Notes: generated by a model from the letters alone, not told the origin. A stretch of DNA of 54,024 bases from Patescibacteria group bacterium (GCA_049318005.1 JBMOHE010000005.1:1-54024); one strand, 5' to 3'; positions 95-35,582 are shown, numbered from the stretch's first letter. Program-made: numbers and translations.

Positions 95-249
95 TCAGAT
101 AGCATAGAAAGGAGCACCTTAACATTTGTGGCTTATCATCATAATTTAATCACCTATCAGCATCTCAAATTATGGGAATCTGACAAGTGATTAAATTATA
201 TTATAAACCAGCAGTTAAACTACAACTTACTGCACAATACATATAAATA

Positions 250-1677
250 ATGAAAAGTATACTCTATTTATTATTAATTATCCTATCCTCATCTTTAAAA
301 GCTCAATTACCAATAGAAGTCGATCATAGCCCCGAAATGCCATCTCCTCTTAACCAAGGTAACAGTGGTGCTTGTGTTGCATTCTCCGCTTGCTACTTGA
401 AAACATGGCAAGAGTCCAAGGAAATTGGTTGGAATGTTAAGGACTCGGCTCATATTTTTTCACCTGCATTTATATATAATCTTGCGCATACTCATGGGCA
501 AGCTCCGGGCCTAGGCGGCGGATATGCATTAAACGTAATAATCGAGAATGGAGGTGTGAGTTTAAGAGATTTTCCCTTTGACCCTAACAATGATAGCACT
601 CAGGCAAATGACGAACTAAGACATAAGGCTTTATATTATCGAGATCAAAGTTGGTATCTTATTAAAAGCGACAGTTTAAGATTGGCCAAAGAAACACTAG
701 TCAAAATGCCAATAATAACTGAAATTAGTTTTAATGGATACAGTCATTCTGTTTGTTTGGTGGGTTATAATGATACTATTCGTATCGGCGGATATTTAGG
801 TGCCTTCAAATATATTAATTCTTACGGGCCAGGCTGGAAAGGAAATAATATAAATCAATGGGGCTCCAATGGATACGGTTGGCTTCCGTATAATTATGCT
901 CATGATGATTTTTATGTTCTTGAAAATAGAATTAATAGCAATCCGGACGTAGTATTCAAATTTAAAAATAATTGTTCGGGCGTTAATGTTAATAACATGA
1001 ATGCCTCGACAAAGTTATATTTTTTGAAAGGCTCTGATACGATAAAAATATTAGAACGGAAGATATCACGTTCTTATAGCTATGATGCTGAAAAATATTT
1101 TCTTGTAACTCTTGATAATTTTAGAGACACGCTCGATAATTGCGACACTATTCTTTTAAAGTCATTTGTTAGCGATTGGGACAGGGGCGTCATCGAAGCA
1201 CCTCTCGCCATAAATAATTGCTATTATTATGATAAAAACAGTGAGGCTTTTATTAGTTTATCGTTTAAATCAGAAGTTTCTAATTTATCTTTGGAGATAG
1301 ATTCTGTCGAGGTTGGAGGAGCTATCCTGCCACAAAAACAATGGCAGTACTTAACTAGTCATTATTTAAGCGCGAAGATTGCTTCGCCGAAATTAGCTAA
1401 CGGTTTTAAAAAAATTACTAATCTTTATGAAATTAAATGCTCGCCTAACCCCTTTTCGGAAAATACTAATTTCGAAATTAAACTAGACAAAACGGCGATT
1501 GTTGATTTGAAAATATATGATGCATCCGGAAGATTAATAAATTCAGTCATTACCAAGGAGAAAATGATGACCGGAGAGCATAATATAAATTATTCAGGTA
1601 ATTTACCAAGCGGGCTCTATTTTGCTCAAGTAAAAATAAACAATTATATAAAAGTGATAAAAATATTAAGATTCTAA
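250..1677 (+). CDS. Secreted papain-like (C1A) cysteine peptidase with C-terminal T9SS/Por-type sorting domain
   Basis: Signal peptide; catalytic motifs NQGNSGACVAF (Gln/Cys), HSVCLVGY (His), INSYGPGW (Asn); tail SPNPFSENTNFEIKL...KIYDASGRLI...LPSGLYFAQV typical of T9SS type A CTD. Confidence 0.85.
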   Translation: MKSILYLLLIILSSSLKAQLPIEVDHSPEMPSPLNQGNSGACVAFSACYLKTWQESKEIGWNVKDSAHIFSPAFIYNLAHTHGQAPGLGGGYALNVIIENGGVSLRDFPFDPNNDSTQANDELRHKALYYRDQSWYLIKSDSLRLAKETLVKMPIITEISFNGYSHSVCLVGYNDTIRIGGYLGAFKYINSYGPGWKGNNINQWGSNGYGWLPYNYAHDDFYVLENRINSNPDVVFKFKNNCSGVNVNNMNASTKLYFLKGSDTIKILERKISRSYSYDAEKYFLVTLDNFRDTLDNCDTILLKSFVSDWDRGVIEAPLAINNCYYYDKNSEAFISLSFKSEVSNLSLEIDSVEVGGAILPQKQWQYLTSHYLSAKIASPKLANGFKKITNLYEIKCSPNPFSENTNFEIKLDKTAIVDLKIYDASGRLINSVITKEKMMTGEHNINYSGNLPSGLYFAQVKINNYIKVIKILRF

Positions 1678-1700
1678 AAAATAGCATCTTACGCACACTC

Positions 1701-1732
1701 AAAAGGCTGGACCTAAACGTTCAGCCTTTTTT
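1701..1732 (+). terminator. Intrinsic terminator
   Basis: AAAAGGCTG...CAGCCTTTTTT hairpin after the stop codon. Confidence 0.8.
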
Positions 1733-1744
1733 ATTGCATTGCTA

Positions 1745-1773
1745 TTGACAAATTAGCTATTTTAGTGTATAAT
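1745..1773 (+). promoter_or_regulatory. Consensus sigma70 promoter TTGACA-N17-TATAAT
   Basis: ttgaca 1745-1750, tataat 1768-1773. Confidence 0.8.
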
Positions 1774-1821
1774 TATCTTAGTTATTTACAATTAAATATA
1801 ATTTCACAAAATACCATATTA

Positions 1822-2319
1822 ATGAAAACAAACCTCTTGTTACTGCTAACTCTGTGCCTTTGTTCGATGTTCATTTCTTGCGACGATCAAATGCAAAGCG
1901 ATGCTGCTGATATTTACTACAAAATGCTGAAAGAAAAGATCAATTCTGAATACGATTCTCTGCCCGAATTAAAACCGATTAAAGACTGGAATGAAGTAGA
2001 AAGTTGTTCAAACTTCAAGATCAGAAACAATAAAATTTGGTACGACGGAGAAGCTATTCTTGATTCACGCGGCGTCAAACCCTTATACTGTCAGGGCGAT
2101 GTATTAGTACTTCTAGATGGTGAATTGCTTGTTGTTCTGTATAAAACAGAAATAACACCCGACCCAATGAAGTACAATTCCCCTACCATGATAGGCGGGA
2201 AAATAAAGGACAATGTAGCCTATGTGAAATTGCAAGACGCAAAAGATGGTCGGATAATACTAATAAAGTATGTATCCGAAGTTGGGAAAATGTCGAACGT
2301 CTACGTCTGCAACTATTAA
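1822..2319 (+). CDS. Hypothetical lipoprotein (start moved to ATG 1822)
   Basis: MKTNLLLLLTLCLCSMFIS-C signal with lipobox-like Cys; the upstream part of the ORF overlaps the promoter. Confidence 0.7.
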   Translation: MKTNLLLLLTLCLCSMFISCDDQMQSDAADIYYKMLKEKINSEYDSLPELKPIKDWNEVESCSNFKIRNNKIWYDGEAILDSRGVKPLYCQGDVLVLLDGELLVVLYKTEITPDPMKYNSPTMIGGKIKDNVAYVKLQDAKDGRIILIKYVSEVGKMSNVYVCNY

Positions 2320-2322
2320 ATT

Positions 2323-2362
2323 AAAGACCGGTTCTGCTCTAATGCAAATCCGGTCTTCTTTT
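2323..2362 (+). terminator. Intrinsic terminator
   Basis: AAGACCGG...CCGGTCTT followed by CTTTT. Confidence 0.6.
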
Positions 2363-2369
2363 ATATTAA

Positions 2370-2423
2370 TTGACATTTTCAGTTAAAAATGATAATGTCA
2401 GTGTACTAAGAAATATTTCTTAG
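2370..2423 (+). promoter_or_regulatory. Promoter (TTGACA-N17-TAATGT, extended TG) followed by a perfect 18-bp palindrome CTAAGAAATATTTCTTAG
   Basis: ttgaca 2370-2375; taatgt 2393-2398; palindrome 2406-2423. Confidence 0.6.
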
Positions 2424-2442
2424 CGTTCTTAAAAAATGTGTC

Positions 2443-2943
2443 ATGAAACAGAAAACTGTTTTAAGTGAACATCGCAAAGGTGAAATTGCCTTGGCGATGC
2501 TGATTGAAGATGTTAGAGGGAGACAAACAACTCTCAAAAGAACTGATATCTTAAAAAATATCGGGGTTGTTAGCAAAGACTTGGAACCTTTTGGAATAAC
2601 CAAGGATGAGGTTATTACTATGTACCGCGACATCATCGCAATCGTTCTCGGTGATATTTTTGGCCAACAAGTTTCTTGGTCAAGGCTTGAAGCCATGGTT
2701 CACCAAAAATCTTTGAGCCAAGCTAGAAGATGTGAAATCGCTCTCTGCTTTGGAAAGGCAGATATTAAAAACAAAACTCTTTCTCTGAACAAAAATGAGG
2801 TTATGCGAAAAATGGGCAATGTCGTTCAGGCATTAAAACCCTACGACATCCATGAGGAAGAAATTATGGCCTTATACCAAGAAGTCGTAACCGAAGCTCT
2901 GGAAAACATTTTTGAACAAAAAATTACTTGGGAAACTAAGTAA
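2443..2943 (+). CDS. Hypothetical protein with two tandem ~80-aa homologous domains
   Basis: QKTVLSEHRKGEIAL...IFGQQVSW aligns with QKSLSQARRCEIAL...IFEQKITW. Confidence 0.8.
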   Translation: MKQKTVLSEHRKGEIALAMLIEDVRGRQTTLKRTDILKNIGVVSKDLEPFGITKDEVITMYRDIIAIVLGDIFGQQVSWSRLEAMVHQKSLSQARRCEIALCFGKADIKNKTLSLNKNEVMRKMGNVVQALKPYDIHEEEIMALYQEVVTEALENIFEQKITWETK

Positions 2944-2951
2944 AATTTCAT

Positions 2952-3053
2952 GATCAACGACCAAGGTAGAACTCTAGTAGTTCTCTAAAAGGGTAATTGC
3001 TACTCCCGGCTAACGGCTTGTAGCAGGATAAGAACCTCTCCTTGTTGGGGATC
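2952..3053 (+). ncRNA. Candidate structured 3'-UTR RNA of unknown class
   Basis: Nested complementary segments: gatc/gatc, caagg/ccttg, agaact/agttct, tgctac/gtagca with inner ccg-GCTAA-cgg. Confidence 0.3.
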
Positions 3054-3083
3054 AAAAGGGGCCTTCATTGAAGACCCCTTTTT
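3054..3083. terminator. Bidirectional terminator between the 166-aa gene and trpS
   Basis: AAAAGGGG...CCCCTTTTT. Confidence 0.8.
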
Positions 3084-3101
3084 AAATATCTAAAATTTAT
3101 T

Positions 3102-4106
3102 TTATCTTACCCCAATCGCACGTCTAACTACTTCCATTTTCTCCTCAGCAATTTTATTTAATTTTTCTTTTCCAATTTCTAAAATCATTAGGACGTCATC
3201 ATCACTAATACTATTATATTTTTTCTGAAAGTTATCTAAGAATTTAACAACCACATCGGCTAGATCTTTTTTGAAATCTCCATAGCCTTTTCCTGTATAG
3301 TCCTTAACTAATCTTTTAATTTCTCGAGTTCCAAGCATCGCATAAATTGTCAAAAGATTAGATAAAGCTGGTTTTTCTTCGAGATTATACTCAATATCAG
3401 TTCCTGAATCAGTAACGGCACGCATAATTTTTTTGCTTGCCGAATCGATATCTTCTAATAATTGAATGCAATTATTTTGGTTCTCATCACTCTTACTCAT
3501 CTTCTTTAAAGGATTTTGAAGGGACATAATTCTGGCTCCTTCTTTTTTAATAACTGCCTGAGGAATTTTGAACGTATCTCCAAATTCAGTATTAAATCGT
3601 TTAGCAATATCACGAGCAAGTTCAACGTGCTGTTTTTGATCGTCCCCAACCGGGACAGCTTCGGTATCATATAATAAGATATCAGCTGCCATTAAAACCG
3701 GGTAATCATATAGCCCAACGCTAACTGATTCCTGATTTTTTCCCGCCTTATCTTTAAACTGAGTCATCTTATTTAAATCAGCAATATGAGCTCCGTAACA
3801 ATTTAAAATCCAAGCTAGTTCGGTATGGGCGGGTATGGCCGACTGCTGAAATATAATTGATTTTTCAGGGTCAATGCCGGCTGCTAAATATATTTTAGTT
3901 ACCTCAATAATACGACGGCGTAAATCTTCGGGATTTTGTTTAACGGTAATCGCGTGATAATCGACAATAGAAAAAATACAATTATATTTATCCTGCATCT
4001 CTACCCATTGAGAAATCGCTCCAATATAATTTCCAATATTTAGATTTCCACTTGGCTGTATACCAGAAAAGATACTTAATTTTTTTCCTCTTTGTTCTTT
4101 GACCAT
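3102..4106 (-). CDS. trpS: Tryptophanyl-tRNA synthetase
   Basis: SGIQPSG.LNIGNYIG, YPVLMAADILLY, VPVGDDQKQH, KMSKS motifs. Confidence 0.98.
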   Translation of the reverse strand: MVKEQRGKKLSIFSGIQPSGNLNIGNYIGAISQWVEMQDKYNCIFSIVDYHAITVKQNPEDLRRRIIEVTKIYLAAGIDPEKSIIFQQSAIPAHTELAWILNCYGAHIADLNKMTQFKDKAGKNQESVSVGLYDYPVLMAADILLYDTEAVPVGDDQKQHVELARDIAKRFNTEFGDTFKIPQAVIKKEGARIMSLQNPLKKMSKSDENQNNCIQLLEDIDSASKKIMRAVTDSGTDIEYNLEEKPALSNLLTIYAMLGTREIKRLVKDYTGKGYGDFKKDLADVVVKFLDNFQKKYNSISDDDVLMILEIGKEKLNKIAEEKMEVVRRAIGVR

Positions 4107-4206
4107 ATTTTTGAAATTATTTATACTAATATCTTACTCAAAATACTAATTAAAAGCAATTTGCTTGAATAAATAGAAACTTGTGTTAAGATGTCTATAC
4201 AATTAG

Positions 4207-4282
4207 GGGCTTGTAGCTCATCTGGTAGAGCGCTGCATTCGCATTGCAGAGGTAAGGGGTTCGAGTCCCCTCAAGTCCACCA
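4207..4282 (+). tRNA. tRNA-Ala(CGC), CCA encoded
   Basis: Acceptor GGGCTTG/CAAGTCC with G3:U70; anticodon arm CTGCA-TTCGCAT-TGCAG; TTCGAGT loop. Confidence 0.95.
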
Positions 4283-4302
4283 GTAAAAATATTTTTAGTC
4301 AA

Positions 4303-4336
4303 TAAAAAACCCTTTAAAATTAAAGGTTTTTTTATT
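4303..4336 (+). terminator. Terminator after tRNA-Ala
   Basis: AAAAACCCTTTA...TAAAGGTTTTTTT. Confidence 0.7.
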
Positions 4337-4346
4337 TCTGGCCACT

Positions 4347-4375
4347 TTGACAAAAGACCCTTTGGCGACTATAAT
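4347..4375 (+). promoter_or_regulatory. Consensus promoter TTGACA-N17-TATAAT for the LCP-der-pth operon
   Basis: ttgaca 4347-4352; tataat 4370-4375. Confidence 0.8.
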
Positions 4376-4434
4376 TGAACTTAGAAATATACAAAAACAA
4401 CAATTCTTCAGTTTGAGAGAATTTTTTATTTTTT

Positions 4435-5883
4435 ATGATAGATTTTAATAAAAAAATGCAAGAAGCCGACAGACTTGAAAGAAAGAGTCAAGGAGGCATA
4501 TTAAATAGTGATTTGCCCATTAATAAACAAAAAAGAAAAAAAATAACGATCTATGCCGTAACTATTTTAGTGGTTGCGCTAGTTTTTTCCGGTAAAATAA
4601 TTATGTCCAGCCAAAACGCAACTAGTTGGATTCCGGGAATAAGTTTTTTTTCTAAAATAAGAAAATTAGTTCCAATTGCTAATAAACTTTTAATTGGAGA
4701 AGAAAATGACCGAATAAATATTTTACTTCTTGGCATGGGCGGAGAGAATCATGATGGCGGCTATCTAACCGACACCATAATGTTAACTAGTTTAAAGCCT
4801 AGCACAAAACAAGTTGCCCTAGTTTCTGTTCCGCGCGACTTAACCGCGCCCGTAAGTGGGTGGAGAAAAATTAACAGCGTTAATGCCTACGCCGAACAAG
4901 AACTGCCTGGATCTGGAAGCTCGGCGACTACTAAAGCAATTGATGAACTATTTCAAACCCCTATCACATATTATGTTAGAGTAGATTTCAGTGGTTTTGA
5001 AAGAATAATCGACGAAATAGGTGGAGTAGAAGTAAATGTTGAGAATTCTTTTGATGACTATACTTACCCCGTTAAAGGAAGAGAAGATAATCCTGATTAT
5101 TATTCCCGTTTTGAACATCTTCATTTTGATGCCGGTCTTCAAAAAATGGACGGATCTTTAGCGCTTAAATATGCTCGCAGTCGTCACGCTTTTGGACCAG
5201 AGGGATCTGACTTTGCTCGCGCTAGACGCCAACAACTATTACTAGAGGCTGTTAAAGATAAATTATTATCAAGACAAACTCTTTTGAACCCCGTTGTTTT
5301 GGCTAAATTATTAACAGAATTAAATAAAGATATTTCAACCAATCTAAATACCTGGGAAATGATTCGTCTTTGGGATCTATTTAAAGATGTAAAGAGAGAA
5401 CAAATAATTAATAAAGTTTTAAGCGACGCTCCAGATGGGCTTCTTGTTTCTGGAAAAGGACAAGATGGGGCCTATATTTTAACCCCAAGAACAGGAAATT
5501 TTTCTGAAATCAAAAACATGGTTCAAACAATTTTTGATTCAAACCCTGTTACTGAAAAAAGTGTGATTGAACCGATCAGCGAAGAAGCAAAAGTTTTTAT
5601 TGCCAATGGAACTTGGATCTCTGGCCTAGCCGGAAAGACCTCAAGTACTTTAGAGCAATATAATTTTAAAACCGTGGGAACAGGAAACGCTATAGAAAGG
5701 AACTACCAACAAACAGTTGTTTACGATTTAAGTAGCGGAGCTAAAAACGAATCTCTAATTGCTTTAAAAAAATTAACTGGAGCAACTCAAGCTTTTAATT
5801 CTCCTGAATGGCTAAATGAATACAAAACAGGAAATAATGAATCTGACTTTTTACTTATTTTAGGAACTGATGCTAATAAATAA
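4435..5883 (+). CDS. LCP (LytR-CpsA-Psr) family glycopolymer transferase with C-terminal LytR_C domain
   Basis: N-terminal TM; INILLLG, TDTIM, SVPRDL, KINS, ALKYARSRH, SDFARARRQQ; C-terminal V.IANGT..SGLA. Confidence 0.92.
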   Translation: MIDFNKKMQEADRLERKSQGGILNSDLPINKQKRKKITIYAVTILVVALVFSGKIIMSSQNATSWIPGISFFSKIRKLVPIANKLLIGEENDRINILLLGMGGENHDGGYLTDTIMLTSLKPSTKQVALVSVPRDLTAPVSGWRKINSVNAYAEQELPGSGSSATTKAIDELFQTPITYYVRVDFSGFERIIDEIGGVEVNVENSFDDYTYPVKGREDNPDYYSRFEHLHFDAGLQKMDGSLALKYARSRHAFGPEGSDFARARRQQLLLEAVKDKLLSRQTLLNPVVLAKLLTELNKDISTNLNTWEMIRLWDLFKDVKREQIINKVLSDAPDGLLVSGKGQDGAYILTPRTGNFSEIKNMVQTIFDSNPVTEKSVIEPISEEAKVFIANGTWISGLAGKTSSTLEQYNFKTVGTGNAIERNYQQTVVYDLSSGAKNESLIALKKLTGATQAFNSPEWLNEYKTGNNESDFLLILGTDANK

Positions 5884-5887
5884 ATAT

Positions 5888-7288: not shown

Positions 7289-7291
7289 TAT

Positions 7292-7840: not shown

Positions 7841-7844
7841 ACAT

Positions 7845-7880
7845 AAAATCCTCCTAAAAAATTTAGGGGGATTTTATTTT
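7845..7880 (+). terminator. Terminator between pth and dprA
   Basis: AAAATCCTCCTAAA...TTTAGGGGGATTTT. Confidence 0.65.
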
Positions 7881-7885
7881 AATCT

Positions 7886-27651: not shown

Positions 27652-27673
27652 TAAATAACTCAAATACTAAACA

Positions 27674-27702: not shown

Positions 27703-27716
27703 AATGCTTTTTAAGT

Positions 27717-30563
27717 TTAATTTAAAGTTATTACTATTTCATTGCTTTTTAGAGAGTCTCCATTCCAATCATATAGTTCACCAAAAATTGAGTAATTTCC
27801 TGACCCACTTTTAGGCGCTGAGGGAAAGTAAATATCATTAATAGAATTAATGGTTCCACTAAAAGAACCAACCTCAACCACTTGACCGTCTCCAGCTCTG
27901 TAAAATAATTTCATAGATGAGACCCTGTTTGGCTCAATAACTTGAAAGGTTGTTTTAAGGGGGAAGTCGGCGGCATTAAGAGCGAGACTACTCTCTGGAT
28001 AAATCAATTTAATAGAATTTTTTGTTATAGATATTGGGTTATTTTTTATTAAAATATTAAAACTAACCGAACCCTCAGAGCAATTTTCAACATCATCACA
28101 GGATTTAACTTTTAATGTTTGATATCCATTCCCTAGAAAATTAATTGGAGCGGTGAATATGGATTGATTGCCCCATTTTGTTTGCCAGAGATTATTGTTT
28201 ATGTAATATTCAACGCGGCTGGTTCCACGAGGGGCAATAGATTCAACTTGAACGTCAAGGTTTTGGCTGGTTATAGTCTGATTTTTTAAAGGGGAAATTA
28301 TTGATATAACTGGTTTATTTTCTTCTTTATGCAGGGTGTCATAGTCAGTCGGCAAAGTTGAGCTAGAACTTGTTCCATTTTTTTCTGACCACTTTTTAAC
28401 AGCCTCTTCCCAAATAGAGAATTGAGGATCATTTTCTGGATTAGATGGGATTGGCCCACGAGGATTATCCTTATCAACATAAAATAAAATACTGTGGTTA
28501 ACGCTCGCACTTTTTTCTTCAATTAATTCTGGCGGTGTAGAGCTTGTAGCGAGTAATCCGGAACTCTTATCAACTTTTACTATTTGCATTGGAATTTGAC
28601 CGTCTAGAATCGCTTTGCTGGTCTTGTAGTCGTCGGGTGCCTTGAAGTTTTCAGATGGAGTATCGCCCAAGACTTTAATCATGTAGTCGTGCCAGATTGG
28701 AGCAGCCACAACACTACCATCAGCTTTCCCTTTCATTGACTTATTATCACTGTTGCCAATCCAAACACCAGTCACAAGAGATGGTGTATAGCCAATTGTC
28801 CAAGCGTCATGATAATCATTAGTTGTTCCTGTCTTTGCGGCGACTGGTCTATCACCAAGAGTTAAATAATTTTTAGCGCCAAAAATATAAGTGCGGGCCG
28901 CGTTATCGCTCAAGACACTGTTTATCATTCTGGCCACTTGCGAGTCGAGAGCTTTTTTTTCACTTGGTTTATATTCTTCAAGAACTTTTCCATTTTTATC
29001 TTCAACTTTAAGTATACTAACTACTGGACTTATCTGCCCATCGCGAGCAAAAGCGCTATAAGCATTCACGTGCTCAAGCATCTTTACTTCTCCTCCACCA
29101 AGAACTAATGAGAGGCCAAAGCGACTTCTTGGATAGAGGGTTGTGTAGCCAAGATTTTCAGCTAAATCAATTACGTTATTAATGTTTGCTAAATAGATTG
29201 CCTTTACGGCAGGTATATTTAAAGAACCGGCCAGCGCCTGTCTAATTGATACCGGGCCATGCTCTTTTAAATCATAATTATGAGGAGTATATGGTTCAGA
29301 GGGATTGGTAGAAAAATTAGTTACTACGTCGTAAAGGATGGTGGCTGGTGTATATCCTTTTTCAAATAGGGCGGCATAAACAATTGGCTTCATGGAGGAG
29401 CCGGGTTGGCGTGGTCGGGTGGTAACATTAACCTGCCCATCAATTGAATCGTCAAAATAATCACGAGAGCCAACCATGGCTAAAACCTGGCCAGTCTTTG
29501 GGTCTATTGAAAGCAGAGCGGCGTTATTGGCTCCATAGCTTTCTGGGTAATCTTTTGTTCTTTCAGTTATAACCTCTTCGGCTATTTTTTGTTTATATAA
29601 ATCAAGAGTTGTATAAATTTTCAAGCCATCTTGTTCTATCATTTTTTCTCCGTATTTTTCAGCTAACATGTCTTTTATATACATAACAAAATGAGGCGCA
29701 GTCATGTTGTTGTCACGGCCCTTAAAAACTAATTCTTGTTTTTTGGCAAAATCTCTTTCGTCTTTAGATATATAGTTTTGTTCAGCCATTAAATCTAAAA
29801 TATAATCTTTGCGACCAAGTAGTAGGTCTTTATTAGCGCCATAAGGAGAATAGCGACTTGGTGATTGAGGTAATGCGGCAAGGGTTGCTGCCTCAGCTAA
29901 AGTTAAATCGCGACTGTTTTTTCCAAAATATTTTTGACTAGCCGCTTCAACGCCGTATGCATTCGAGCCATAAGGAATTTCATTTAAATACATCTGTAGA
30001 ATTTCATCCTTAGAAAACTTTTTTTCTAATTGATAGGCCATTATCAACTCTTTTATTTTTCTGGTAACTGTCTTTTCATTAGATAAGACGGCATTCTTAA
30101 TAAACTGTTGAGTTAGTGTTGACCCACCAGCACTACGATTATAAATAATATTCGTAATAGCAGTTCTGGCCATTGCCCAAACACTAAAGCCACCATGGTT
30201 ATAGAAACCCTTATCTTCAATTGAAATGGTGGCCTCTTTTACGTAATCAGGAATATCTTTTAATTGAATTAAAGTTCTTCTCTGTTCGCCGCTGATTTCG
30301 TAAAGAACATTTTCACCCGTTCTGTCATAAATTTTTGTGCTTTGAGCGACCTCGCGATTAATTAATTGGTTTGGATTGGGAAGGTCGCGAGATATCCAAA
30401 AAATACCAAGAACTGATAAAACAGCTATCGTGGCTAGCGCGTATAAGGCAAAAACAAACAATCTTTTTTTATCAAATTTTTTATTTTTTTTTCGTGAATA
30501 AGAAAGGCTATCTCCATCTTTCCAGGAGGCGCTTTTTCTGTTTTTTAGCTGAGGAATTGGCAT
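27717..30563 (-). CDS. Class A penicillin-binding protein (PBP1A family) with C-terminal Ig-like domains
   Basis: GT51 motifs ED..FY.H.G, GGSTLTQQ, RKIKE; transpeptidase GSSMKP, SLN, KTGTT. Confidence 0.95.
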   Translation of the reverse strand: MPIPQLKNRKSASWKDGDSLSYSRKKNKKFDKKRLFVFALYALATIAVLSVLGIFWISRDLPNPNQLINREVAQSTKIYDRTGENVLYEISGEQRRTLIQLKDIPDYVKEATISIEDKGFYNHGGFSVWAMARTAITNIIYNRSAGGSTLTQQFIKNAVLSNEKTVTRKIKELIMAYQLEKKFSKDEILQMYLNEIPYGSNAYGVEAASQKYFGKNSRDLTLAEAATLAALPQSPSRYSPYGANKDLLLGRKDYILDLMAEQNYISKDERDFAKKQELVFKGRDNNMTAPHFVMYIKDMLAEKYGEKMIEQDGLKIYTTLDLYKQKIAEEVITERTKDYPESYGANNAALLSIDPKTGQVLAMVGSRDYFDDSIDGQVNVTTRPRQPGSSMKPIVYAALFEKGYTPATILYDVVTNFSTNPSEPYTPHNYDLKEHGPVSIRQALAGSLNIPAVKAIYLANINNVIDLAENLGYTTLYPRSRFGLSLVLGGGEVKMLEHVNAYSAFARDGQISPVVSILKVEDKNGKVLEEYKPSEKKALDSQVARMINSVLSDNAARTYIFGAKNYLTLGDRPVAAKTGTTNDYHDAWTIGYTPSLVTGVWIGNSDNKSMKGKADGSVVAAPIWHDYMIKVLGDTPSENFKAPDDYKTSKAILDGQIPMQIVKVDKSSGLLATSSTPPELIEEKSASVNHSILFYVDKDNPRGPIPSNPENDPQFSIWEEAVKKWSEKNGTSSSSTLPTDYDTLHKEENKPVISIISPLKNQTITSQNLDVQVESIAPRGTSRVEYYINNNLWQTKWGNQSIFTAPINFLGNGYQTLKVKSCDDVENCSEGSVSFNILIKNNPISITKNSIKLIYPESSLALNAADFPLKTTFQVIEPNRVSSMKLFYRAGDGQVVEVGSFSGTINSINDIYFPSAPKSGSGNYSIFGELYDWNGDSLKSNEIVITLN

Positions 30564-30625
30564 AAAATATATTATTAAGATAAACTTATTATATCAGAAA
30601 AATAATCTTTTGTAATTTCCTACAT

Positions 30626-31411
30626 ATGAACATAATCAATAGTTTAAATAACCAAAAAATTAAGGATTTGGTAAAATTAAAAAAGGCTGGAGAGCGTCGA
30701 GCGCAGAATTTAATTATTATTGACGGAGCGCGCGAAATAGAGATTGCTAAAAAATCAGGAATAGAAATTTTAGAATTGTTTTACTGCCCAAATTTTGTTA
30801 AGAAAGAAGTAAAAGACTTTTTTAACATTCAGAGAGACAAAATTACTGAAGTTTCAGCCCCAGTGTTTGAAAAAATCTGTTATAAAGAAACTCCGGACGG
30901 ATATTTTGCTCTTGCTAAAGGAAAAAAACTAAACTTAAATAAAGTAAAATTAAGCAAAAATCCTTTAGTTATTATTTTAGAGTCTGTAGAAAAACCCGGT
31001 AATTTAGGGGCGATTCTTAGAACCGCCTATGCGACTGGAGTAGATTTGATTATTTTAAACGATAGTCAGACAGATATTTATAACCCAAATGTGATTAGGG
31101 CGAGTGAGGGCTTTGTATTTAATCAGCAAATTGTAATTTCAGCAATTGACGAAACAGTTAGCTGGTTAAAAGAAAATATAATTTTAAGTTACGCGGCCGC
31201 AACTAGTGGAAAGAATAACTATAGTAAGGAAAAAATGGACAAGTCGCTGGCGATAGTTATGGGCTCAGAGGCTCATGGCTTAAGCGCGAAGTGGCTGAAA
31301 AATGCGGATAAGTTAGTAAAAATACCAATGACCAAGGGAATGGATTCTCTAAACGTTTCCGTTTCAGCGGCCGTTTTACTATATGAAGCCGTTAGACAGA
31401 GAGAAAAATAA
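30626..31411 (+). CDS. TrmH/SpoU family RNA 2'-O-methyltransferase
   Basis: EKPGNLGAILRTA.A, VMGSEAHGLS, IPM...DSLNVSVSAA. Confidence 0.93.
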   Translation: MNIINSLNNQKIKDLVKLKKAGERRAQNLIIIDGAREIEIAKKSGIEILELFYCPNFVKKEVKDFFNIQRDKITEVSAPVFEKICYKETPDGYFALAKGKKLNLNKVKLSKNPLVIILESVEKPGNLGAILRTAYATGVDLIILNDSQTDIYNPNVIRASEGFVFNQQIVISAIDETVSWLKENIILSYAAATSGKNNYSKEKMDKSLAIVMGSEAHGLSAKWLKNADKLVKIPMTKGMDSLNVSVSAAVLLYEAVRQREK

Positions 31412-31485
31412 GAGAAATCGCTAATGTTTGACAAGAGTTAGTATTTCTATTAATATAAGACAAGAAATAAGCAAAAATATATTTT

Positions 31486-31557
31486 GCGCCCGTAGTTCAG
31501 CGGATAGAACGGGAGCCTTCTAAGCTCTAGACGAGGGTTCGACTCCCCCCGGGCGTA
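31486..31557 (+). tRNA. tRNA-Arg(UCU), no encoded CCA
   Basis: Acceptor GCGCCCG/CGGGCGT-A; anticodon arm GGAGC-CTTCTAA-GCTCT. Confidence 0.92.
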
Positions 31558-31580
31558 CGTTTCACAGAAACACATATCAT

Positions 31581-31652
31581 GGTGCCTATGGTGTAGTGGT
31601 AACACAGCAGGTTGTGGTCCTGTTATTTCGGGTCCGATTCCCGATAGGCACC
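31581..31652 (+). tRNA. tRNA-His(GUG) with encoded G-1
   Basis: GGTGCCTA/TAGGCACC 8-bp acceptor; anticodon arm GCAGG-TTGTGGT-CCTGT; T-loop TCCGATT. Confidence 0.9.
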
Positions 31653-31668
31653 CCTAAAGGGAATATAT

Positions 31669-31698
31669 AAAAATAACTCTAATATTAGAGTTATTTTT
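31669..31698 (+). terminator. Terminator after tRNA-His
   Basis: AAAATAACTCTAAT-ATTAGAGTTATTTTT. Confidence 0.75.
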
Positions 31699-31720
31699 GT
31701 TTTTAAGAACAAAGATCCCT

Positions 31721-31800
31721 AGTGGGAATACAAACTAATTGACAAAATAGTATAAATATGATATGGTTTTTATACAGTTCGTTGAAATATTAATTTGAAA
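31721..31800 (+). promoter_or_regulatory. Promoter/leader module, copy 1 (TTGACA-N17-TATGGT)
   Basis: 58/80 ungapped identity (hand count) to 34521-34600. Confidence 0.7.
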
Positions 31801-31812
31801 AAAACATAAGTT

Positions 31813-32160
31813 ATGAAAAGAAAAACAATGATTTTAGGTATTTATTTTATGATTTGGCTATTATTAGTTGTCTTTCTTGGACAATTTTTAATATCTATAA
31901 TTTTTTTAGGTATTTATACTGGAATTATTTATTCAGGTGGGGCAATGTTTGAACACGCAGAAAATCTTTCTGAGGAGATTGGTTGGGTTTGTTTCTCGGC
32001 AGTATTTGCTGGAAACATAATTCACGTCCTAATAGCCGGTCTGTTTCCAGTAGCATCATTCTTGTATCATGATTTTACTTTTTGGAGTGGAGTTGGTTAT
32101 GTTGCTGGGCTTACTATTCTTAACGCACCGTTTAATTTTTGGGTTTTTTCAGGAGATTAA
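31813..32160 (+). CDS. Hypothetical multi-TM membrane protein
   Basis: 115-aa hydrophobic ORF with its own promoter. Confidence 0.75.
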   Translation: MKRKTMILGIYFMIWLLLVVFLGQFLISIIFLGIYTGIIYSGGAMFEHAENLSEEIGWVCFSAVFAGNIIHVLIAGLFPVASFLYHDFTFWSGVGYVAGLTILNAPFNFWVFSGD

Positions 32161-32232
32161 TTAGTGCAAAATAAAACTATAATGCTAACTATAATTGTTA
32201 GCATTTTTTTATATCAATTTACAAAATATTCA

Positions 32233-32257
32233 ATCAAAAAAGTTTGCCAAGTTTTGC
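32233..32257 (+). repeat. 25-bp direct repeat, copy 1 (ATCAAAAAAGTTTGCCAAGTTTTGC)
   Basis: Identical to 34418-34442. Confidence 0.9.
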
Positions 32258-32270
32258 AATTGGCCACACA

Positions 32271-32301
32271 TAAAAAAACACTCCAAATTGGAGTGTTTTT
32301 A
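32271..32301. terminator. Bidirectional terminator
   Basis: AAAAAAACACTCCAA-TTGGAGTGTTTTT. Confidence 0.8.
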
Positions 32302-33129
32302 TTATATTGATCTTGGCTTCATGATATCCTCTAAAAACTTTTTAGAAGATTCAGAATCTTCTTTAAGCGGTTTGGATATACTCCAAAGTATTTCAAACTG
32401 AGTTTTAAGTAGTTGTCTTAACTCTTTACTCTCAACAATAAAGCCAAAATTCTCTTTTTTAGAAGACATAAAGATTACCTTATTTCCATAAGCCCAGTAA
32501 CCCATAGAAAAATCAACTCCTTCGGGCGCAATTCGCACTTCGCGTTTTACTTCTTTGCCTGGAGCCAAAAAAGTATCTTTAGTAATATCACTAGCTTTAT
32601 CCATCGGCCAGATAACACGAATATGAATATTATTACGCACTCTTTTTTTATTAAACTCGTGTAAAAATTCTTCCCCAACAACTTTAATAATATCTTTAAC
32701 TGGCCAACAAAGTTCGGTGTGCAGATTATCATATAACAAAACATTCTTTAGCATTGTCTTCATTTCTTCAGCCCCTTCGAAATAGTTAAACTTTGGGCTA
32801 GTAAAGTCTGTTCTTTGAGAAGACTTTAACTTTTCTAAAATACCATCAAAACTATCTCGTGTATTTTCTAAAGAATTAATTTTGTCGTTTAGAATATTTT
32901 TAATATTGTCTGGGTTAACCGCTTGCCATAATTTAATATTTTCTTTTTCGCTTTGTAAAATTAATCCACCAAGAGCCAGGTCATTTAATAAGCCATATAA
33001 GGTTGAGCGAGGAATATTTAAACGTTTAGCTAAGTTCCCGGCTGACATAACGCCGCCCTCTAACAATGATATATACACATCGGAGTGTTCTTTCCTTAGA
33101 TCAAGTTTTTCAAAAATTTTATCTAACAT
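32302..33129 (-). CDS. TrmB family transcriptional regulator (wHTH plus PLD-like effector domain)
   Basis: VYISLLEGG.MSAG.LAKRLNIPRSTLY..L..L...GLI; YFEGAEEMK; AYGNKV; start moved to ATG 33129. Confidence 0.88.
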   Translation of the reverse strand: MLDKIFEKLDLRKEHSDVYISLLEGGVMSAGNLAKRLNIPRSTLYGLLNDLALGGLILQSEKENIKLWQAVNPDNIKNILNDKINSLENTRDSFDGILEKLKSSQRTDFTSPKFNYFEGAEEMKTMLKNVLLYDNLHTELCWPVKDIIKVVGEEFLHEFNKKRVRNNIHIRVIWPMDKASDITKDTFLAPGKEVKREVRIAPEGVDFSMGYWAYGNKVIFMSSKKENFGFIVESKELRQLLKTQFEILWSISKPLKEDSESSKKFLEDIMKPRSI

Positions 33130-33151
33130 AAATTTATAATAATTAGTCATT

Positions 33152-33169
33152 TGTCGAAACTTGCCGACA
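33152..33169. promoter_or_regulatory. Candidate operator TGTCG-N8-CGACA in the divergent promoter region
   Basis: Inverted repeat between the trmB start and a TTTACG-N17-TATTAT promoter (33173-33201). Confidence 0.4.
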
Positions 33170-33279
33170 CTATTTACGATAACACACTTTCGTTGTATTA
33201 TCAAGTTATTAATAAACAAGTTCATTTACAAATCAATAACTGTCCTAAAATATGGACAAAAAAAAGGAGGAAACAAATC

Positions 33280-33732
33280 ATGAAATTTAAATTTTATCCA
33301 AATCAACATTACACCACTAACGGTGGCTGGTGGACTTACACTTGGTTCTTAAGTATCGCAACAAAAAATGAAGATTTTTGGCTAGTTAGTTACGAGGTGA
33401 TGAGTCTTGTCATTGGTTTCATTTTTTCGTTCGTTTTAGTTATAGCAAGTAACAACAAAGAATTAGTTAAAATCTTATGTGGCCTAATTTCAGATGAATC
33501 GATACAGACTTTTATTGTTATTCTTTATTTACTTTGGCTCATTTCCAGCGCGTGGGAATTATATTTATACTGTGATGTTGATGAGTCTCGTGAATGGAAA
33601 AAGTTTGGTAAATTACAATTTGTAATTAAATTAGCTGTTAGAATTGTTAGAGGATTACCTATAATAATTCTCGGAATGGGAATAATTTATGGACTATTCT
33701 ATCTAGCTAGTCTATTAATTGGCCTACTTTAA
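33280..33732 (+). CDS. Hypothetical membrane protein
   Basis: Strong AAGGAGG SD at 33264-33270 fixes the start at 33280; three to four TM helices. Confidence 0.75.
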   Translation: MKFKFYPNQHYTTNGGWWTYTWFLSIATKNEDFWLVSYEVMSLVIGFIFSFVLVIASNNKELVKILCGLISDESIQTFIVILYLLWLISSAWELYLYCDVDESREWKKFGKLQFVIKLAVRIVRGLPIIILGMGIIYGLFYLASLLIGLL

Positions 33733-33794
33733 CTTAATATTTATTATTTAATTTAACTGAAATTAAAAAATTAAAAAATCGGAGGAAATAAATC

Positions 33795-34361
33795 ATGAAA
33801 ACAAAAAAGACAAATGTCGCTAAAAATTTAATTGATTCATTAAATAATATTTATTCAAAGTTGTCGGAAGAGACAGGACAAAGTTTTTACAGAATTTCTT
33901 ATGACTTTTATTTAAAAGAAGGTTCTATAAAAGCAACTATCCAATATGATTTTCAAAAAAGCTTAAACTTTGAAAGTTGCTGTGAAAACTGGTTTAAAAG
34001 ACTTTGTTGTCATATTGCACACGGGAATGATTCTTGTGGCTCACAAGAATTTATAAAGATTAAAAGGGCACATCAGCGGGCTGATTTAAAAGTTATTGGT
34101 ATAATATACGATCCACTTTTAAGAAGGTATATTACGGACTCAATTTATCACTCTTTTGAAATTGATCGTTTTCGCTCTAGAACATATGTTGATTTTGAGC
34201 TTGCATTCCCTCTCTCTATTTTTTCAAAAAAATTTCAAGAACTTTACAAAAATCAAAAATCAAAAAAAGAGCATGAGGACATTGAAGAAATGAATAGTAT
34301 TTTTCTAGAAGAACTAGATTATTGGGATGAATTTTATGGACCGAGACCAGCATCAAAGTAG
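33795..34361 (+). CDS. Hypothetical protein (Cys-rich central motif)
   Basis: GGAGG SD; CCENWFKRLCCHIAHGNDSC. Confidence 0.75.
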   Translation: MKTKKTNVAKNLIDSLNNIYSKLSEETGQSFYRISYDFYLKEGSIKATIQYDFQKSLNFESCCENWFKRLCCHIAHGNDSCGSQEFIKIKRAHQRADLKVIGIIYDPLLRRYITDSIYHSFEIDRFRSRTYVDFELAFPLSIFSKKFQELYKNQKSKKEHEDIEEMNSIFLEELDYWDEFYGPRPASK

Positions 34362-34366
34362 TCAAA

Positions 34367-34400
34367 TCAACCCCCTCGCAAACAATTGTGAGGGGTTTTT
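34367..34400 (+). terminator. Intrinsic terminator
   Basis: AACCCCCTCGCA...TGTGAGGGGTTTTT. Confidence 0.75.
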
Positions 34401-34417
34401 AATTTATTAAATACTTC

Positions 34418-34442
34418 ATCAAAAAAGTTTGCCAAGTTTTGC
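34418..34442 (+). repeat. 25-bp direct repeat, copy 2
   Basis: Identical to 32233-32257. Confidence 0.9.
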
Positions 34443-34520
34443 GATTAACCACCCCCTAGAAGTGAATTAATAATATCCCTGTAAAAAGGGGTATTTTTTT
34501 GTTATAAATATAAAACCCCC

Positions 34521-34600
34521 AGCGGGAATGTAATCTAATTGACAAATATGTATTATTGTGATATAATTTATTAACAGTTCATTTGAATAATAATCAAAAA
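34521..34600 (+). promoter_or_regulatory. Promoter/leader module, copy 2 (TTGACA-N17-TATAAT, extended TG)
   Basis: ttgaca 34539-34544; tataat 34562-34567; homologous to 31721-31800. Confidence 0.75.
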
Positions 34601-34612
34601 AACATATATAAA

Positions 34613-34774
34613 ATGAAGAAGATAGTAGATTTCTGGAGGTCCTTTGCAATTTGCTACGCGATAGGATATATGATTTTTTTACGCCCTGTTATTAACAGTG
34701 GCGCGGTAGATATTATTTTCTACTTACCCTTACTTGTGTTTTCTACACTAGTCTGGATATATAGAAAAAAGTAA
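34613..34774 (+). CDS. Small (53-aa) two-TM membrane protein
   Basis: MKKIVDFWRSFAICYAIGYMIFL...; own promoter and downstream hairpin. Confidence 0.6.
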   Translation: MKKIVDFWRSFAICYAIGYMIFLRPVINSGAVDIIFYLPLLVFSTLVWIYRKK

Positions 34775-34864
34775 ATTCAACAAAAGAATGGGCCCGCGAT
34801 ACAACATCAAGGGCTCTTTTTTATTATTAAAAAACCCGGTCTGTGGAAGTCCGGGCTTAAGAGT

Positions 34865-35413
34865 TCATTTAACAATCATTTGATTTTCAAGATTGGCGAC
34901 CAACTCTTCAATGATTTTAGTTGAAAAAATTAGCTTTTCATGTTCTGGTTTGATGAATCCATGAGAGACGGCTTCTCTGACAAAAGAAAAGATGTGATCA
35001 AAATAGTTATTCACATTAAGAAACCCACATGGTTTTTTGTGATACCCCAGCTGTCTGTAAGTGAGAACCTCAAAAGCCTCATCAAGAGTTCCGAGCCCGC
35101 CTGGTAAAACGATAAAGGCGTCGGAAAGATCAATCATTTTTTGTTTTCTCTCTTGCATGCTTTGAACGGTTATAAGTCTTGTCCCGTCTTTATGTCCGCA
35201 TCGTTTTAATAAATCTTTAGGCATAACAGCAATTGCTTCGCCGCCGTTTTTAATAACGTTATCAGCTACAACGCCCATTAAGCCACAATTAGAGCCACCG
35301 TAAACTAAATTGATACCGCGCCCGGCAAGATACTTTCCAAGTTCGGCTGCTTTAGCGGTAAACTCAAAATAGGCTGCGTCATGTGAGCCACAAAATACAC
35401 AAATTGTTTTCAT
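34865..35413 (-). CDS. LOG family (TIGR00730-type) nucleotide phosphoribohydrolase
   Basis: ICVFCGS, LVYGG...GLMG, MQERK..M, PGGLGTLDE. Confidence 0.93.
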   Translation of the reverse strand: MKTICVFCGSHDAAYFEFTAKAAELGKYLAGRGINLVYGGSNCGLMGVVADNVIKNGGEAIAVMPKDLLKRCGHKDGTRLITVQSMQERKQKMIDLSDAFIVLPGGLGTLDEAFEVLTYRQLGYHKKPCGFLNVNNYFDHIFSFVREAVSHGFIKPEHEKLIFSTKIIEELVANLENQMIVK

Positions 35414-35582
35414 GCTTTGTTGATTTTTTATGTTTTGTTAGTATTAATGTACGAATAATAGTGAAATTTATCTCAAATTGGCTGAATTGTCAATATGAGG
35501 GATAGTTTGGATTGACAAATGGGGCTCATCGGTGGCATATTTAATAATCAGAACTTTAAAATACAAATTTAAAACTGCATAA

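What the first reader, a model, noticed from the sequence alone, without database searches (positions are those of the whole stretch)
113..35561. Recurrent boxA-like motif just downstream of predicted start sites of accessory genes
Seen: a 12-13 nt motif follows the -10 element of several stand-alone genes: AGCACCTTAACA (113-124), AGTTATTTACAA (1780-1791), CGTTCTTAAAAA (2424-2435), AGTTCGTTGAAA (31776-31787), AGTTCATTTACAA (33219-33231), AGTTCATTTGAA (34576-34587), AGAACTTTAAAA (35550-35561) and CGTACATTAATA on the minus strand before the LOG gene (35442-35453). Known: it resembles the NusB/NusE boxA (TGCTCTTTAACA in E. coli rrn). I did not see it at the near-leaderless glyA or GNAT promoters. 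Inference: a shared leader element that antiterminates, stabilises or translationally controls acquired AT-rich genes.
Basis: partly seen in the sequence, partly recalled or inferred. Interest (0 to 1): 0.65.

Follow-up and report, generated by a model that had tools for sequence, protein, structure and literature searches.

The report
boxA-like leaders on accessory genes
A short RNA signal that matches the one found in front of ribosomal RNA genes in close relatives also sits in front of about 70 mostly strain-specific single genes in this tiny, Rho-less Patescibacteria genome. That is far more such sites than has been reported for any bacterium in the papers I could search.

Summary
All eight strings are at the stated coordinates, but only part of the list holds up. 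Four fit a statistically real motif (113, 35550 and 35442(-) at about 11 bits; 2424 at 9.3). One is borderline (33219, 8.3). Three are background-level (1780, 31776, 34576).

De novo discovery on 182 promoter-proximal leaders gives t-a-G-t-A-C-t-T-T-A-A-a-A-a, with a log-likelihood ratio of 168 against 50±5 in shuffles. At 10 bits or more, 74 of 532 leaders carry it on the sense strand, against 5.0±2.4 after shuffling and 4 antisense. A same-genus complete genome yields the same motif independently. Orthologous leaders in about 20 relatives keep it while the flanks diverge.

The rRNA-operon leaders of all eight same-genus relatives carry the same box just after a leader hairpin, where boxA normally sits. 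NusB, S10, NusA and NusG are present. Rho (0 of 41 relatives) and SuhB are absent.

Motif-led genes are mostly single-gene units (61/74) and strongly accessory. Only 18% have an ortholog in the relative, against 64% of controls (p=4e-11). They are not AT-richer than other genes.

Most likely this is a clade-specific NusB/S10 loading site reused on flexible-genome cassettes. Its effect (RNAP modification or translational gating) is untested.

The parts
112..125 (+). boxA-like leader element GAGCACCTTAACAT, 17 nt after the -10 of promoter 66-94 and 124 nt before the ATG of the Por_Secre_tail protein gene (250-1677)
   Evidence: PWM 11.1 bits; promoter TTGACA-17-TAATAT; Pfam hit for the gene
2423..2436 (+). 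Weaker boxA-like element GCGTTCTTAAAAAA, 6 nt before the ATG of an orphan gene (2443-2943). TTGACA lies at 2370-2375.
   Evidence: PWM 9.3 bits; no Pfam family for the gene
35549..35562 (+). boxA-like element CAGAACTTTAAAAT, 7 nt after the -10 of promoter 35512-35541 and 20 nt before the ATG of a TIM-barrel-like gene (35583-36296)
   Evidence: PWM 10.9 bits; promoter; weak AP_endonuc_2 hit
35441..35454 (-). boxA-like element TCGTACATTAATAC, 10 nt after the -10 of the divergent promoter 35493-35465 and 27 nt before the ATG of the LOG-family gene (34865-35413)
   Evidence: PWM 10.9 bits; promoter; Lysine_decarbox/LOG Pfam hit
33218..33231 (+). Borderline site AAGTTCATTTACAA, with one extra T relative to the motif, 48 nt before the SD-led gene 33280-33732
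   Evidence: PWM 8.3 bits; it overlaps the 5' end of the divergent trmB-like ORF
1780..1791 (+). Claimed site AGTTATTTACAA after the perfect promoter 1745-1773; not supported as a motif member
   Evidence: PWM 3.0 bits, background-level
31776..31787 (+). Claimed site AGTTCGTTGAAA, part of the duplicated promoter-leader module 31721-31800; not supported by the matrix (G at the variable column 7). It could be a degenerate copy.
   Evidence: PWM 3.7 bits; surrounding sequence read
34576..34587 (+). Claimed site AGTTCATTTGAA, the second copy of the duplicated module 34521-34600; not supported
   Evidence: PWM -0.3 bits

Best explanation
The listed 12-mers are a partial glimpse of a real sense-strand RNA element in mRNA leaders. 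It is found genome-wide and is conserved across the genus. Its consensus is (u)aG(u/a)AC(u/a)UUAA(a/c)Aa.

The element has the same sequence pattern as the box that follows the leader hairpin in the rRNA operons of same-genus relatives, which is this clade's boxA. It starts 4-40 nt after the -10 element, either next to the predicted 5' end or behind a small 5' hairpin. It ends about 20-38 nt before the start codon.

About 70 transcription units carry it, roughly 14% of all leaders and 40% of those with a perfect TTGACA. These units are mostly short, single-gene and strain-specific, and nearly all lack a Shine-Dalgarno sequence.

Most likely mechanism (inferred, not shown): as the nascent RNA emerges, NusB-S10 binds the box and, together with NusG and NusA, stays tethered to RNA polymerase, as at rRNA operons. 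Because the lineage has neither Rho nor SuhB, the effect cannot be protection from Rho. The two candidate effects are (a) a faster polymerase that resists pauses and intrinsic terminators, giving context-independent expression of newly acquired or fast-evolving genes, or (b) suhB-like gating of translation at the nearby SD-less start. Either effect would tie the flexible genome to the free NusB/S10 pool.

Shown: the motif, its strand and position bias, its conservation, its identity with the rrn-leader box, its accessory-gene bias, and the Nus gene inventory. Inferred: NusB/S10 binding and the direction of the effect.
For: Motif discovery and statistics:
- De novo expectation-maximisation motif: log-likelihood ratio 168 against 50±4.6 in dinucleotide shuffles.
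- 74 of 532 leaders at 10 bits or more, against 5.0±2.4 shuffled and 4 antisense.
- Intergenic hits point at a co-directional gene start 84 times and at a gene end 13 times.

Replication and conservation:
- Independent rediscovery in the same-genus complete genome G005: same consensus, log-likelihood ratio 132 against 43±5.
- Cross-genome matrices still give 59 against 3.2 and 43 against 2.8.
- Orthologs keep the motif in 7 of 13 cases, against a baseline of 1 in 213.
- In fetched orthologous leaders, 10 of 10 GuaB and 12 of 12 C18_7132-family leaders keep C-N-TTAA-M-AA, while flanks and promoter spacing differ.

Link to rRNA operons:
- All eight same-genus rrn leaders carry the box at -146 to -164, just after a conserved hairpin.
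- Several other families in the order carry it too, for example CCGCACTTTAACAA.
- It resembles published boxA sequences: E. coli UGCUCUUUAACA and B. subtilis AUGAUCUUUGAAA (PMC13753749).

Factors:
- NusB is present (E=1e-19 to solved NusB structures, with the Phe and Asp of the U8 pocket aligned).
- S10 carries the FDHK motif.
- NusG and NusA are present.

Architecture:
- About 10 of 26 long-spacing leaders have a 5' hairpin before the box, as in rrn leaders (mean z -1.2, p about 0.003).
Against: - No binding or expression data exist.
- The motif differs from the E. coli box at two of the NusB-contacted positions (U/A-A instead of C-U). No leader matches the gamma-proteobacterial consensus GYTCTTTAANA.
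- It is a low-information motif (about 8 bits). A few hits are really -35 boxes (CTTGACAA).
- SuhB is absent and Rho is absent, so the canonical complex and its canonical purpose are incomplete.
- Most units are single genes of about 700 nt, where processive antitermination seems unnecessary.
- A second box in the 16S-23S spacer is seen in only 2-3 of 8 genus operons.
- No box lies in front of nusB or rpsJ.
- This genome's own rrn operon is not in the assembly.
Confidence: 0.6

Rival explanations
1. The box is read by a different factor shared by pre-rRNA and these mRNAs, such as an endoribonuclease or another RNA-binding protein. On this reading it acts as a processing or stability determinant at the 5' end rather than as a Nus loading site.
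For: - The box often lies at or within a few nucleotides of the predicted 5' end, or just behind a 5' hairpin.
- rRNA leaders also contain processing sites (established knowledge of rRNA maturation).
- The units are short, so control of RNA half-life would matter more than processivity.
- A second associated motif, TATTCACCAAAA, follows the box by 4-15 nt (16/74 against 12/458). This suggests a composite RNA element.
Against: - The pattern of conserved columns (G..C.UUAA.A) mirrors known boxA sequences.
- Its position after the rrn leader hairpin is the classical boxA position (PMC13753749).
- No candidate alternative factor was identified.
Confidence: 0.2
2. The box is a passenger in a mobile or recombining promoter-leader cassette that is repeatedly attached to new genes, and it has no function of its own.
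For: - The 74 motif-led genes fall into 68 protein families, yet their upstream DNA forms similarity clusters of up to 14 members.
- A duplicated promoter-leader module lies in the window, with the claimed sites at 31776 and 34576.
- The same 55-nt sequence precedes different promoter cassettes at five contig ends.
- One motif-led gene is a rolling-circle Rep gene.
Against: - In orthologous leaders across about 20 genomes the box is kept while the surrounding leader, the promoter spacing and the distance to the ATG all change. That pattern indicates purifying selection on the box itself.
- The same box is in rrn leaders.
Confidence: 0.08
3. It is a DNA-level site: an asymmetric operator or a promoter-proximal element read by a transcription factor or by sigma.
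For: - It co-occurs with near-consensus promoters. 53 of 74 motif leaders have a perfect TTGACA, against 79 of 458 others.
- Spacing shows a mode at 10-14 nt after the -10, and one class sits at exactly 4 nt.
Against: - Spacing from the -10 ranges from 4 to more than 40 nt.
- In rrn operons the box lies about 75 nt downstream of the promoter, behind a hairpin.
- The strand bias is strict and there is no dyad symmetry.
- The box lacks the A2 and T6 of a -10-like pause element (read directly from the motif).
Confidence: 0.07
4. It is a translational enhancer that pairs with 16S rRNA, like the phage T7 epsilon sequence UUAACUUUA, compensating for the lack of Shine-Dalgarno sequences.
For: - Only about 5% of genes have an SD-like sequence.
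- The box contains ACUUUAA, and the epsilon sequence is recalled from memory.
- The box ends 20-38 nt before the ATG.
Against: - Complementarity to the 16S rRNA of a same-genus relative is no better than for shuffled motifs. The longest runs are 8-9 with G-U pairs allowed, against 7-9 in shuffles.
- The box also occurs in untranslated rrn leaders.
- The distance to the ATG varies from 8 to 55 nt among orthologs.
- Core SD-less genes lack the box.
Confidence: 0.03

Closest known systems
boxA of rRNA operon leaders (rrn antitermination complex: NusB-NusE/S10, NusA, NusG, S4, SuhB)
   Same: It is a short single-stranded RNA box with the conserved pattern G..C.UUAA.A. In rrn operons of this genus it lies after a leader hairpin, downstream of the promoter. 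It is sense-strand only. NusB, S10, NusA and NusG are all encoded.
   Different: About 70 copies sit on protein-coding leaders. Positions 2-3 read U/A-A rather than C-U. SuhB and Rho are absent from the lineage. A spacer copy is seen in only a minority of genus operons.
Regulatory boxA in mRNA 5' UTRs (E. coli and Salmonella suhB; Citrobacter example; Baniulyte et al. 2017, PMC5725501)
   Same: The box lies within about 50 nt upstream of a start codon. That paper established that Nus factors can act on mRNAs and can repress translation from a distance.
   Different: That study found 0-7 sites per gamma-proteobacterial genome, mainly at Nus or translation genes, and states that only a few targets are likely per species. 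Here about 70 sites lie on orphan, strain-specific genes and none at nusB or rpsJ.
Phage lambda nut sites (boxA + boxB with N protein)
   Same: A boxA in the leader of accessory or mobile genes loads host Nus factors, with a hairpin close by.
   Different: Where a hairpin is present here it lies 5' of the box, in the rrn order. No N-like protein is known. The elements are chromosomal and conserved across a genus.
ops element / RfaH (NusG paralog) on horizontally acquired operons
   Same: Functional analogy only. A leader signal marks accessory, SD-poor genes and recruits an elongation factor that contacts S10.
   Different: ops is a DNA element (GGCGGTAG) read on the non-template strand. Only one NusG-type N-terminal domain is encoded here, and the target units are short single genes rather than long operons.

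Membership tests
boxA (NusB-NusE binding RNA element) | Sequence fits the boxA consensus | tested here: inconclusive
   The column pattern G-x-x-C-x-U-U-A-A-M-A matches E. coli UGCUCUUUAACA and B. subtilis AUGAUCUUUGAAA at most positions. No leader matches the gamma-proteobacterial GYTCTTTAANA exactly. The clade form GWWCWTTAAMA gives 17 leaders against 0.4 in shuffles.
boxA (NusB-NusE binding RNA element) | The same box lies in the rrn leader downstream of the promoter (after boxB-like hairpin) and in the 16S-23S spacer | tested here: met
   Leader: 8 of 8 same-genus operons at -146 to -164, right after a conserved hairpin, plus several other families of the order. Spacer: only 2-3 of 8. This genome's own operon is missing from the assembly.
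boxA (NusB-NusE binding RNA element) | Acts in the transcript (sense strand, downstream of the start site) | tested here: met
   74 sense against 4 antisense leaders. The box starts 4-40 nt after the predicted -10. Start sites are predicted, not mapped.
boxA (NusB-NusE binding RNA element) | NusB and S10 are encoded, with NusA and NusG | tested here: met
   NusB; S10; NusA; NusG.
boxA (NusB-NusE binding RNA element) | Direct, sequence-specific binding by NusB-S10 | not testable with these tools
   Needs EMSA, ITC or NMR with recombinant proteins and RNA oligos.
rrn-type antitermination complex | SuhB is part of the complex and Rho is the factor opposed | tested here: not met
   The Inositol_P family is absent. 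Rho_RNA_bind is absent from this genome and from 0 of 41 relatives.
suhB-type regulatory boxA (Baniulyte 2017) | Box within about 50 nt of a start codon; translational repression followed by Rho termination; few targets per genome | tested here: inconclusive
   The distance criterion is met (interquartile range 20-38 nt). The Rho step is impossible. The number of targets is about ten-fold higher than the 0-7 reported. Repression itself is untested.
RfaH/ops | NusG paralog plus an ops DNA element | tested here: not met
   A single NusG N-terminal domain is present in the genome, and the motif is unrelated to GGCGGTAG.

The most novel reading that the evidence does not exclude
In this Rho-less, SuhB-less Patescibacteria genus (its NusB is closest to records labelled Candidatus Falkowbacteria), the rRNA-operon Nus/boxA machinery has been co-opted as a dedicated expression system for the flexible genome. 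A consensus promoter plus boxA leader marks strain-specific single-gene cassettes and couples their output to the free NusB/S10 pool, that is, to ribosome-assembly status. In this role it replaces what Rho, H-NS or RfaH do for foreign genes in other bacteria.
Probability: 0.3. Interest if true: 0.8.

Novelty: new variant of a known kind. Interest (0 to 1): 0.6.

Why it matters
Outside rRNA operons, Nus-factor/boxA control is known for only a handful of genes per species. What NusB and boxA do in bacteria without Rho is an open question.

Here a 1-Mb genome places the box on roughly one leader in seven. It does so selectively on strain-specific, mostly orphan genes, the part of an episymbiont's genome most likely to deal with hosts and phages.

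If the box loads NusB/S10, it defines a large and easily predicted regulon for the accessory genome. It also offers a simple system (one box, short single genes, no Rho) for asking what the Nus complex does beyond opposing Rho. For annotation, the box together with the TTGACA promoter flags real transcription units among orphan ORFs in these genomes.

Tried and rejected
- **Epsilon-like pairing with 16S rRNA:** complementarity is no better than for shuffled motifs.
- **Link to Shine-Dalgarno-led genes**, as earlier notes reported for other CPR genomes: none here (6/74 against 27/458).
- **AT-rich cargo:** rejected. Motif-led genes are 35.8% GC against 35.1%.
- **Autoregulation of Nus genes:** no box before nusB (best 3.6 bits) or rpsJ (7.4 bits, and that one is inside a hairpin).
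- **-10-like sigma pause element:** the box lacks the A2 and T6 positions (read directly from the motif).
- **Breadth beyond the genus using this genome's matrix:** the signal is modest in a sister-family genome (5/119 against 0.6). It is weak or absent in two distant Patescibacteria (7/257 against 0.8; 1/248). The de novo run in those genomes picked up -10 boxes and terminators instead, and their own boxA may differ, so this is not a clean negative.
- **rRNA search in this assembly:** no 16S found, so relatives had to be used.
- **First EM script:** it timed out and was rewritten.
- **Rfam scan of the window:** only tRNAs found.
Full report
**Setting.** The window is the whole of contig C5 of a 1.05-Mb, 34% GC, 26-contig assembly that is 98.7% complete. 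The NusB protein is most similar to records labelled Candidatus Falkowbacteria, within Patescibacteria/CPR. Promoters are of the TTGACA-N17-TATAAT type. Only about 5% of genes have an SD-like sequence, although the 16S 3' end of relatives carries the normal CCUCC.

**The observation.** All eight strings are at the stated coordinates. As a set they share only three invariant positions and lie 6-27 nt from the nearest -10, so the hand-built alignment proves nothing on its own. I therefore asked the question without using the eight sites.

I called ORFs crudely (979 genes) and took the 532 upstream regions of 40 nt or more. I then picked the best sigma-70-like promoter in each. A ZOOPS expectation-maximisation search ran on the 182 leaders that follow a promoter matching at least 10 of 12 positions.

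**The motif is real.** The search returned t-a-G-t-A-C-t-T-T-A-A-a-A-a, at about 8 bits, in about half of those leaders.
- The log-likelihood ratio is 168, against 50±4.6 in 15 dinucleotide-preserving shuffles.
- At 10 bits or more, 74 of 532 leaders (last 100 nt, sense strand) carry a hit. Shuffled leaders give 5.0±2.4 and the antisense strand gives 4.
- Intergenic DNA holds 100 hits in 100 kb, against 128 in 951 kb of coding DNA. Of the intergenic hits, 84 point at a co-directional start codon and 13 at a gene end.
- The box begins 4-40 nt after the -10, with a mode at 10-14 nt and one class at exactly 4 nt. It ends 20-38 nt (interquartile range) before the ATG.
- Two or three hits are really -35 boxes (CTTGACAA), so the false-positive share is slightly above the shuffle estimate.

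**The eight sites under this matrix.**
- 112-125: 11.1 bits.
- 35549-35562: 10.9 bits.
- 35441-35454(-): 10.9 bits.
- 2423-2436: 9.3 bits.
- 33218-33231: 8.3 bits.
- 1780: 3.0 bits; 31776: 3.7 bits; 34576: -0.3 bits.

Half the list is therefore sound, one site is borderline and three are background-level. The two sites in the duplicated promoter module (31776, 34576) may be decayed copies. This cannot be shown.

**Replication and conservation.** I fetched the complete same-genus genome G005 (977 kb, 39.8% GC) and repeated the whole procedure.
- The same consensus, TAGTACTTTAAAAA, came out, with a log-likelihood ratio of 132 against 43±5.
- The G005 matrix finds 59 leaders in this genome, against 3.2 in shuffles. 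This genome's matrix finds 43 in G005, against 2.8.
- Where a motif-led gene has an ortholog in G005, the ortholog's leader keeps the box in 7 of 13 cases at 10 bits or more, and in 10 of 13 at 8 bits or more. The baseline is 1 in 213.
- For two genes I fetched orthologous leaders from other relatives. All ten same-genus GuaB leaders and all twelve leaders of the C18_7132 family keep C-N-TTAA-M-AA, 8-55 nt before the ATG.
- In those same leaders the flanking sequence, the promoter distance and the presence of a 5' hairpin all vary. That is the signature of selection on the box itself.

**Is it boxA?** This assembly has no 16S, so I took 18 rRNA operons from relatives.
- All eight same-genus leaders align: promoter, then a conserved hairpin, then ...CTGTCTATTTC-GGAACCTTAAAAA at -146 to -164 from the 16S start. 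Scores reach 13.8 bits. Two copies score lower only because of a one-base register shift.
- Other families of the order have CCGCACTTTAACAA, AAGCACATTAACAA and TTGAACATTGAAAA.
- A hairpin followed directly by the box is the arrangement described for B. subtilis and E. coli rrn leaders. Their published boxes are UGCUCUUUAACA and AUGAUCUUUGAAA (PMC13753749).
- The conserved columns here (G, C, UU, AA, A) are the ones shared by those boxes. Positions 2-3 differ. The strict gamma-proteobacterial pattern GYTCTTTAANA of Baniulyte et al. (PMC5725501) matches no leader. The clade form GWWCWTTAAMA matches 17, against 0.4 in shuffles.
- A spacer copy is seen in only 2-3 of 8 genus operons within the 500 nt fetched.

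**Factors.**
- NusB is a normal 170-aa protein (E=1e-19 to solved NusB structures). The Phe and Asp that form the U8 pocket in the Aquifex complex are aligned (PMC3177189).
- S10 has FDHK where E. coli has FDHR.
- NusG and NusA are present.
- No Inositol_P/SuhB is found.
- No Rho RNA-binding domain is found in this genome or in any of 41 relatives, including complete genomes.

**Which genes carry the box.**
- The 74 motif-led genes fall into 68 protein families.
- Seven of ten top-scoring ones have no Pfam family. The other three are a rolling-circle Rep, an epimerase and an APH-type kinase.
- In the window the motif-led genes are a Por_Secre_tail protein, an orphan, a LOG-family enzyme and a TIM-barrel protein.
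- 61 of 74 are single-gene units, with a median of 714 nt against 1287 nt for box-less units with equally strong promoters (p=3e-5).
- Only 15 of 82 have a reciprocal best hit in G005, against 84 of 131 controls (Fisher p=3.6e-11).
- The bias holds in each length class and among TTGACA promoters only. Even GuaB is present in only 10 of 27 genus genomes.
- 53 of 74 have a perfect TTGACA, against 79 of 458 others.
- The genes are not AT-richer (35.8% against 35.1% GC) and not enriched for SD sequences.
- Core genes such as nusB, the S10 cluster and secE-nusG lack the box.

**Further anatomy.** About 10 of 26 leaders with long promoter-to-box spacing have a small 5' hairpin before the box (mean z -1.2, p about 0.003), as in the rrn leader. 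A second motif, TATTCACCAAAA or TACTAACCAAAA, follows the box by 4-15 nt and ends 9-17 nt before the ATG. It occurs in 16 of 74 box leaders against 12 of 458 others (p=3e-8). The rrn leader has a similar ...ACCAAACAA after its box.

**Mechanism.** The strict strand bias, the variable distance from the promoter and the rrn position all point to an RNA element rather than a DNA operator. The sequence pattern and the rrn context point to NusB/S10.

Because Rho is absent, the textbook role cannot apply. Because the units are short single genes, long-range processivity is not obviously needed. Two effects remain plausible.
- An rrn-type modified polymerase that ignores pauses and weak intrinsic terminators inside poorly adapted new genes.
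- A suhB-like block of translation while the box is held on the polymerase. Baniulyte et al. showed this works at distances up to 100 nt.

I cannot separate these two computationally. Pairing with 16S rRNA (the epsilon-enhancer idea) is not supported.

**Novelty.** Searches of the paper library found no report linking boxA with Patescibacteria. [quoted passage not shown]

Earlier AI notes of this scan describe boxA-like leaders in other CPR genomes. I treat them as leads only. One of their generalisations, an association with SD-led, GC-rich genes, does not hold here.

With this genome's matrix the signal is strong in the genus. It is modest in a sister family and weak or absent in two distant Patescibacteria. 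Those lineages may use a different box, so this is not a clean negative.

**Verdict.** The finding is a new variant of a known kind, namely boxA used at regulon scale on the flexible genome of a Rho-less lineage.

Noticed in passing
window 1-55 (also ends of contigs C11, C18, C19, C22): An identical 53-55-nt sequence (ccttatgaggtattctatgaaatgacaggtgttgcacttctaacttgaatgtacc) ends five contigs. Each copy is followed about 10 nt later by a different TTGACA promoter and gene. It appears to be a multi-copy element at which the assembly breaks, and it is absent from the same-genus genome G005.
   Followed up: partly
G000 contigs, e.g. C4:47972(-), C4:69476(-), C21:8698(-), C9:26090(-), C7:17458(-), C24:3771(+): A conserved leader hairpin, aUCCGCCCAAGGCGGAGUAAACA, lies 11-27 nt before the ATG of at least 14 genes. 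Its 3' arm contains one of the rare GGAG sequences of this SD-poor genome, so it may be a structured or sequestered ribosome-binding site. Some copies follow a boxA-like box.
   Followed up: partly
genome-wide; leaders listed: A second leader motif, TATTCACCAAAA / TACTAACCAAAA, lies 4-15 nt after the boxA-like box and 9-17 nt before the ATG. It is strongly associated with box-bearing leaders. A similar ACCAAACAA follows the box in rrn leaders of relatives.
   Followed up: partly
window 32216-32267 and 34401-34452; 31721-31800 and 34521-34600: A 52-nt direct repeat (85% identical) and a duplicated promoter-leader module bracket the trmB-like regulator and two SD-led orphan genes next to tRNA-Arg and tRNA-His. 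This looks like an inserted cassette.
   Followed up: no
window 34862-34878 (+): AGTTCATTTAACAATCA is nearly identical to the claimed site at 33219, but it lies over the stop codon of the minus-strand LOG gene with no promoter in front. Look-alike strings therefore occur outside leaders.
   Followed up: no
whole genome: Only about 5% of genes have GGAG, GAGG or AGGA in positions -20 to -4, and G is depleted to about 8% before start codons. Relatives' 16S rRNAs nevertheless end in the normal ...GGATCACCTCCTTTCT.
   Followed up: partly
L002-L010 (rrn leaders of same-genus relatives): The rrn leader is highly conserved in blocks beyond the box. These include AAACAATCATGGTGATGGTTA, a GATGCTAAT.GGCATC hairpin and a GTCCGTTT...AAACGGA hairpin, probably processing-stem partners.
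   Followed up: no
G000 C4:~40566 (-): A rolling-circle replication protein gene (Pfam REP_ORF2-G2P, E=2e-18) has a 13.5-bit boxA-like leader, which hints at a small integrated or resident ssDNA element.
   Followed up: no
G000 C20:4596-5585 and relatives: IMP dehydrogenase (GuaB) is found in only 10 of 27 same-genus genomes searched, so this metabolic gene is itself part of the flexible genome.
   Followed up: no
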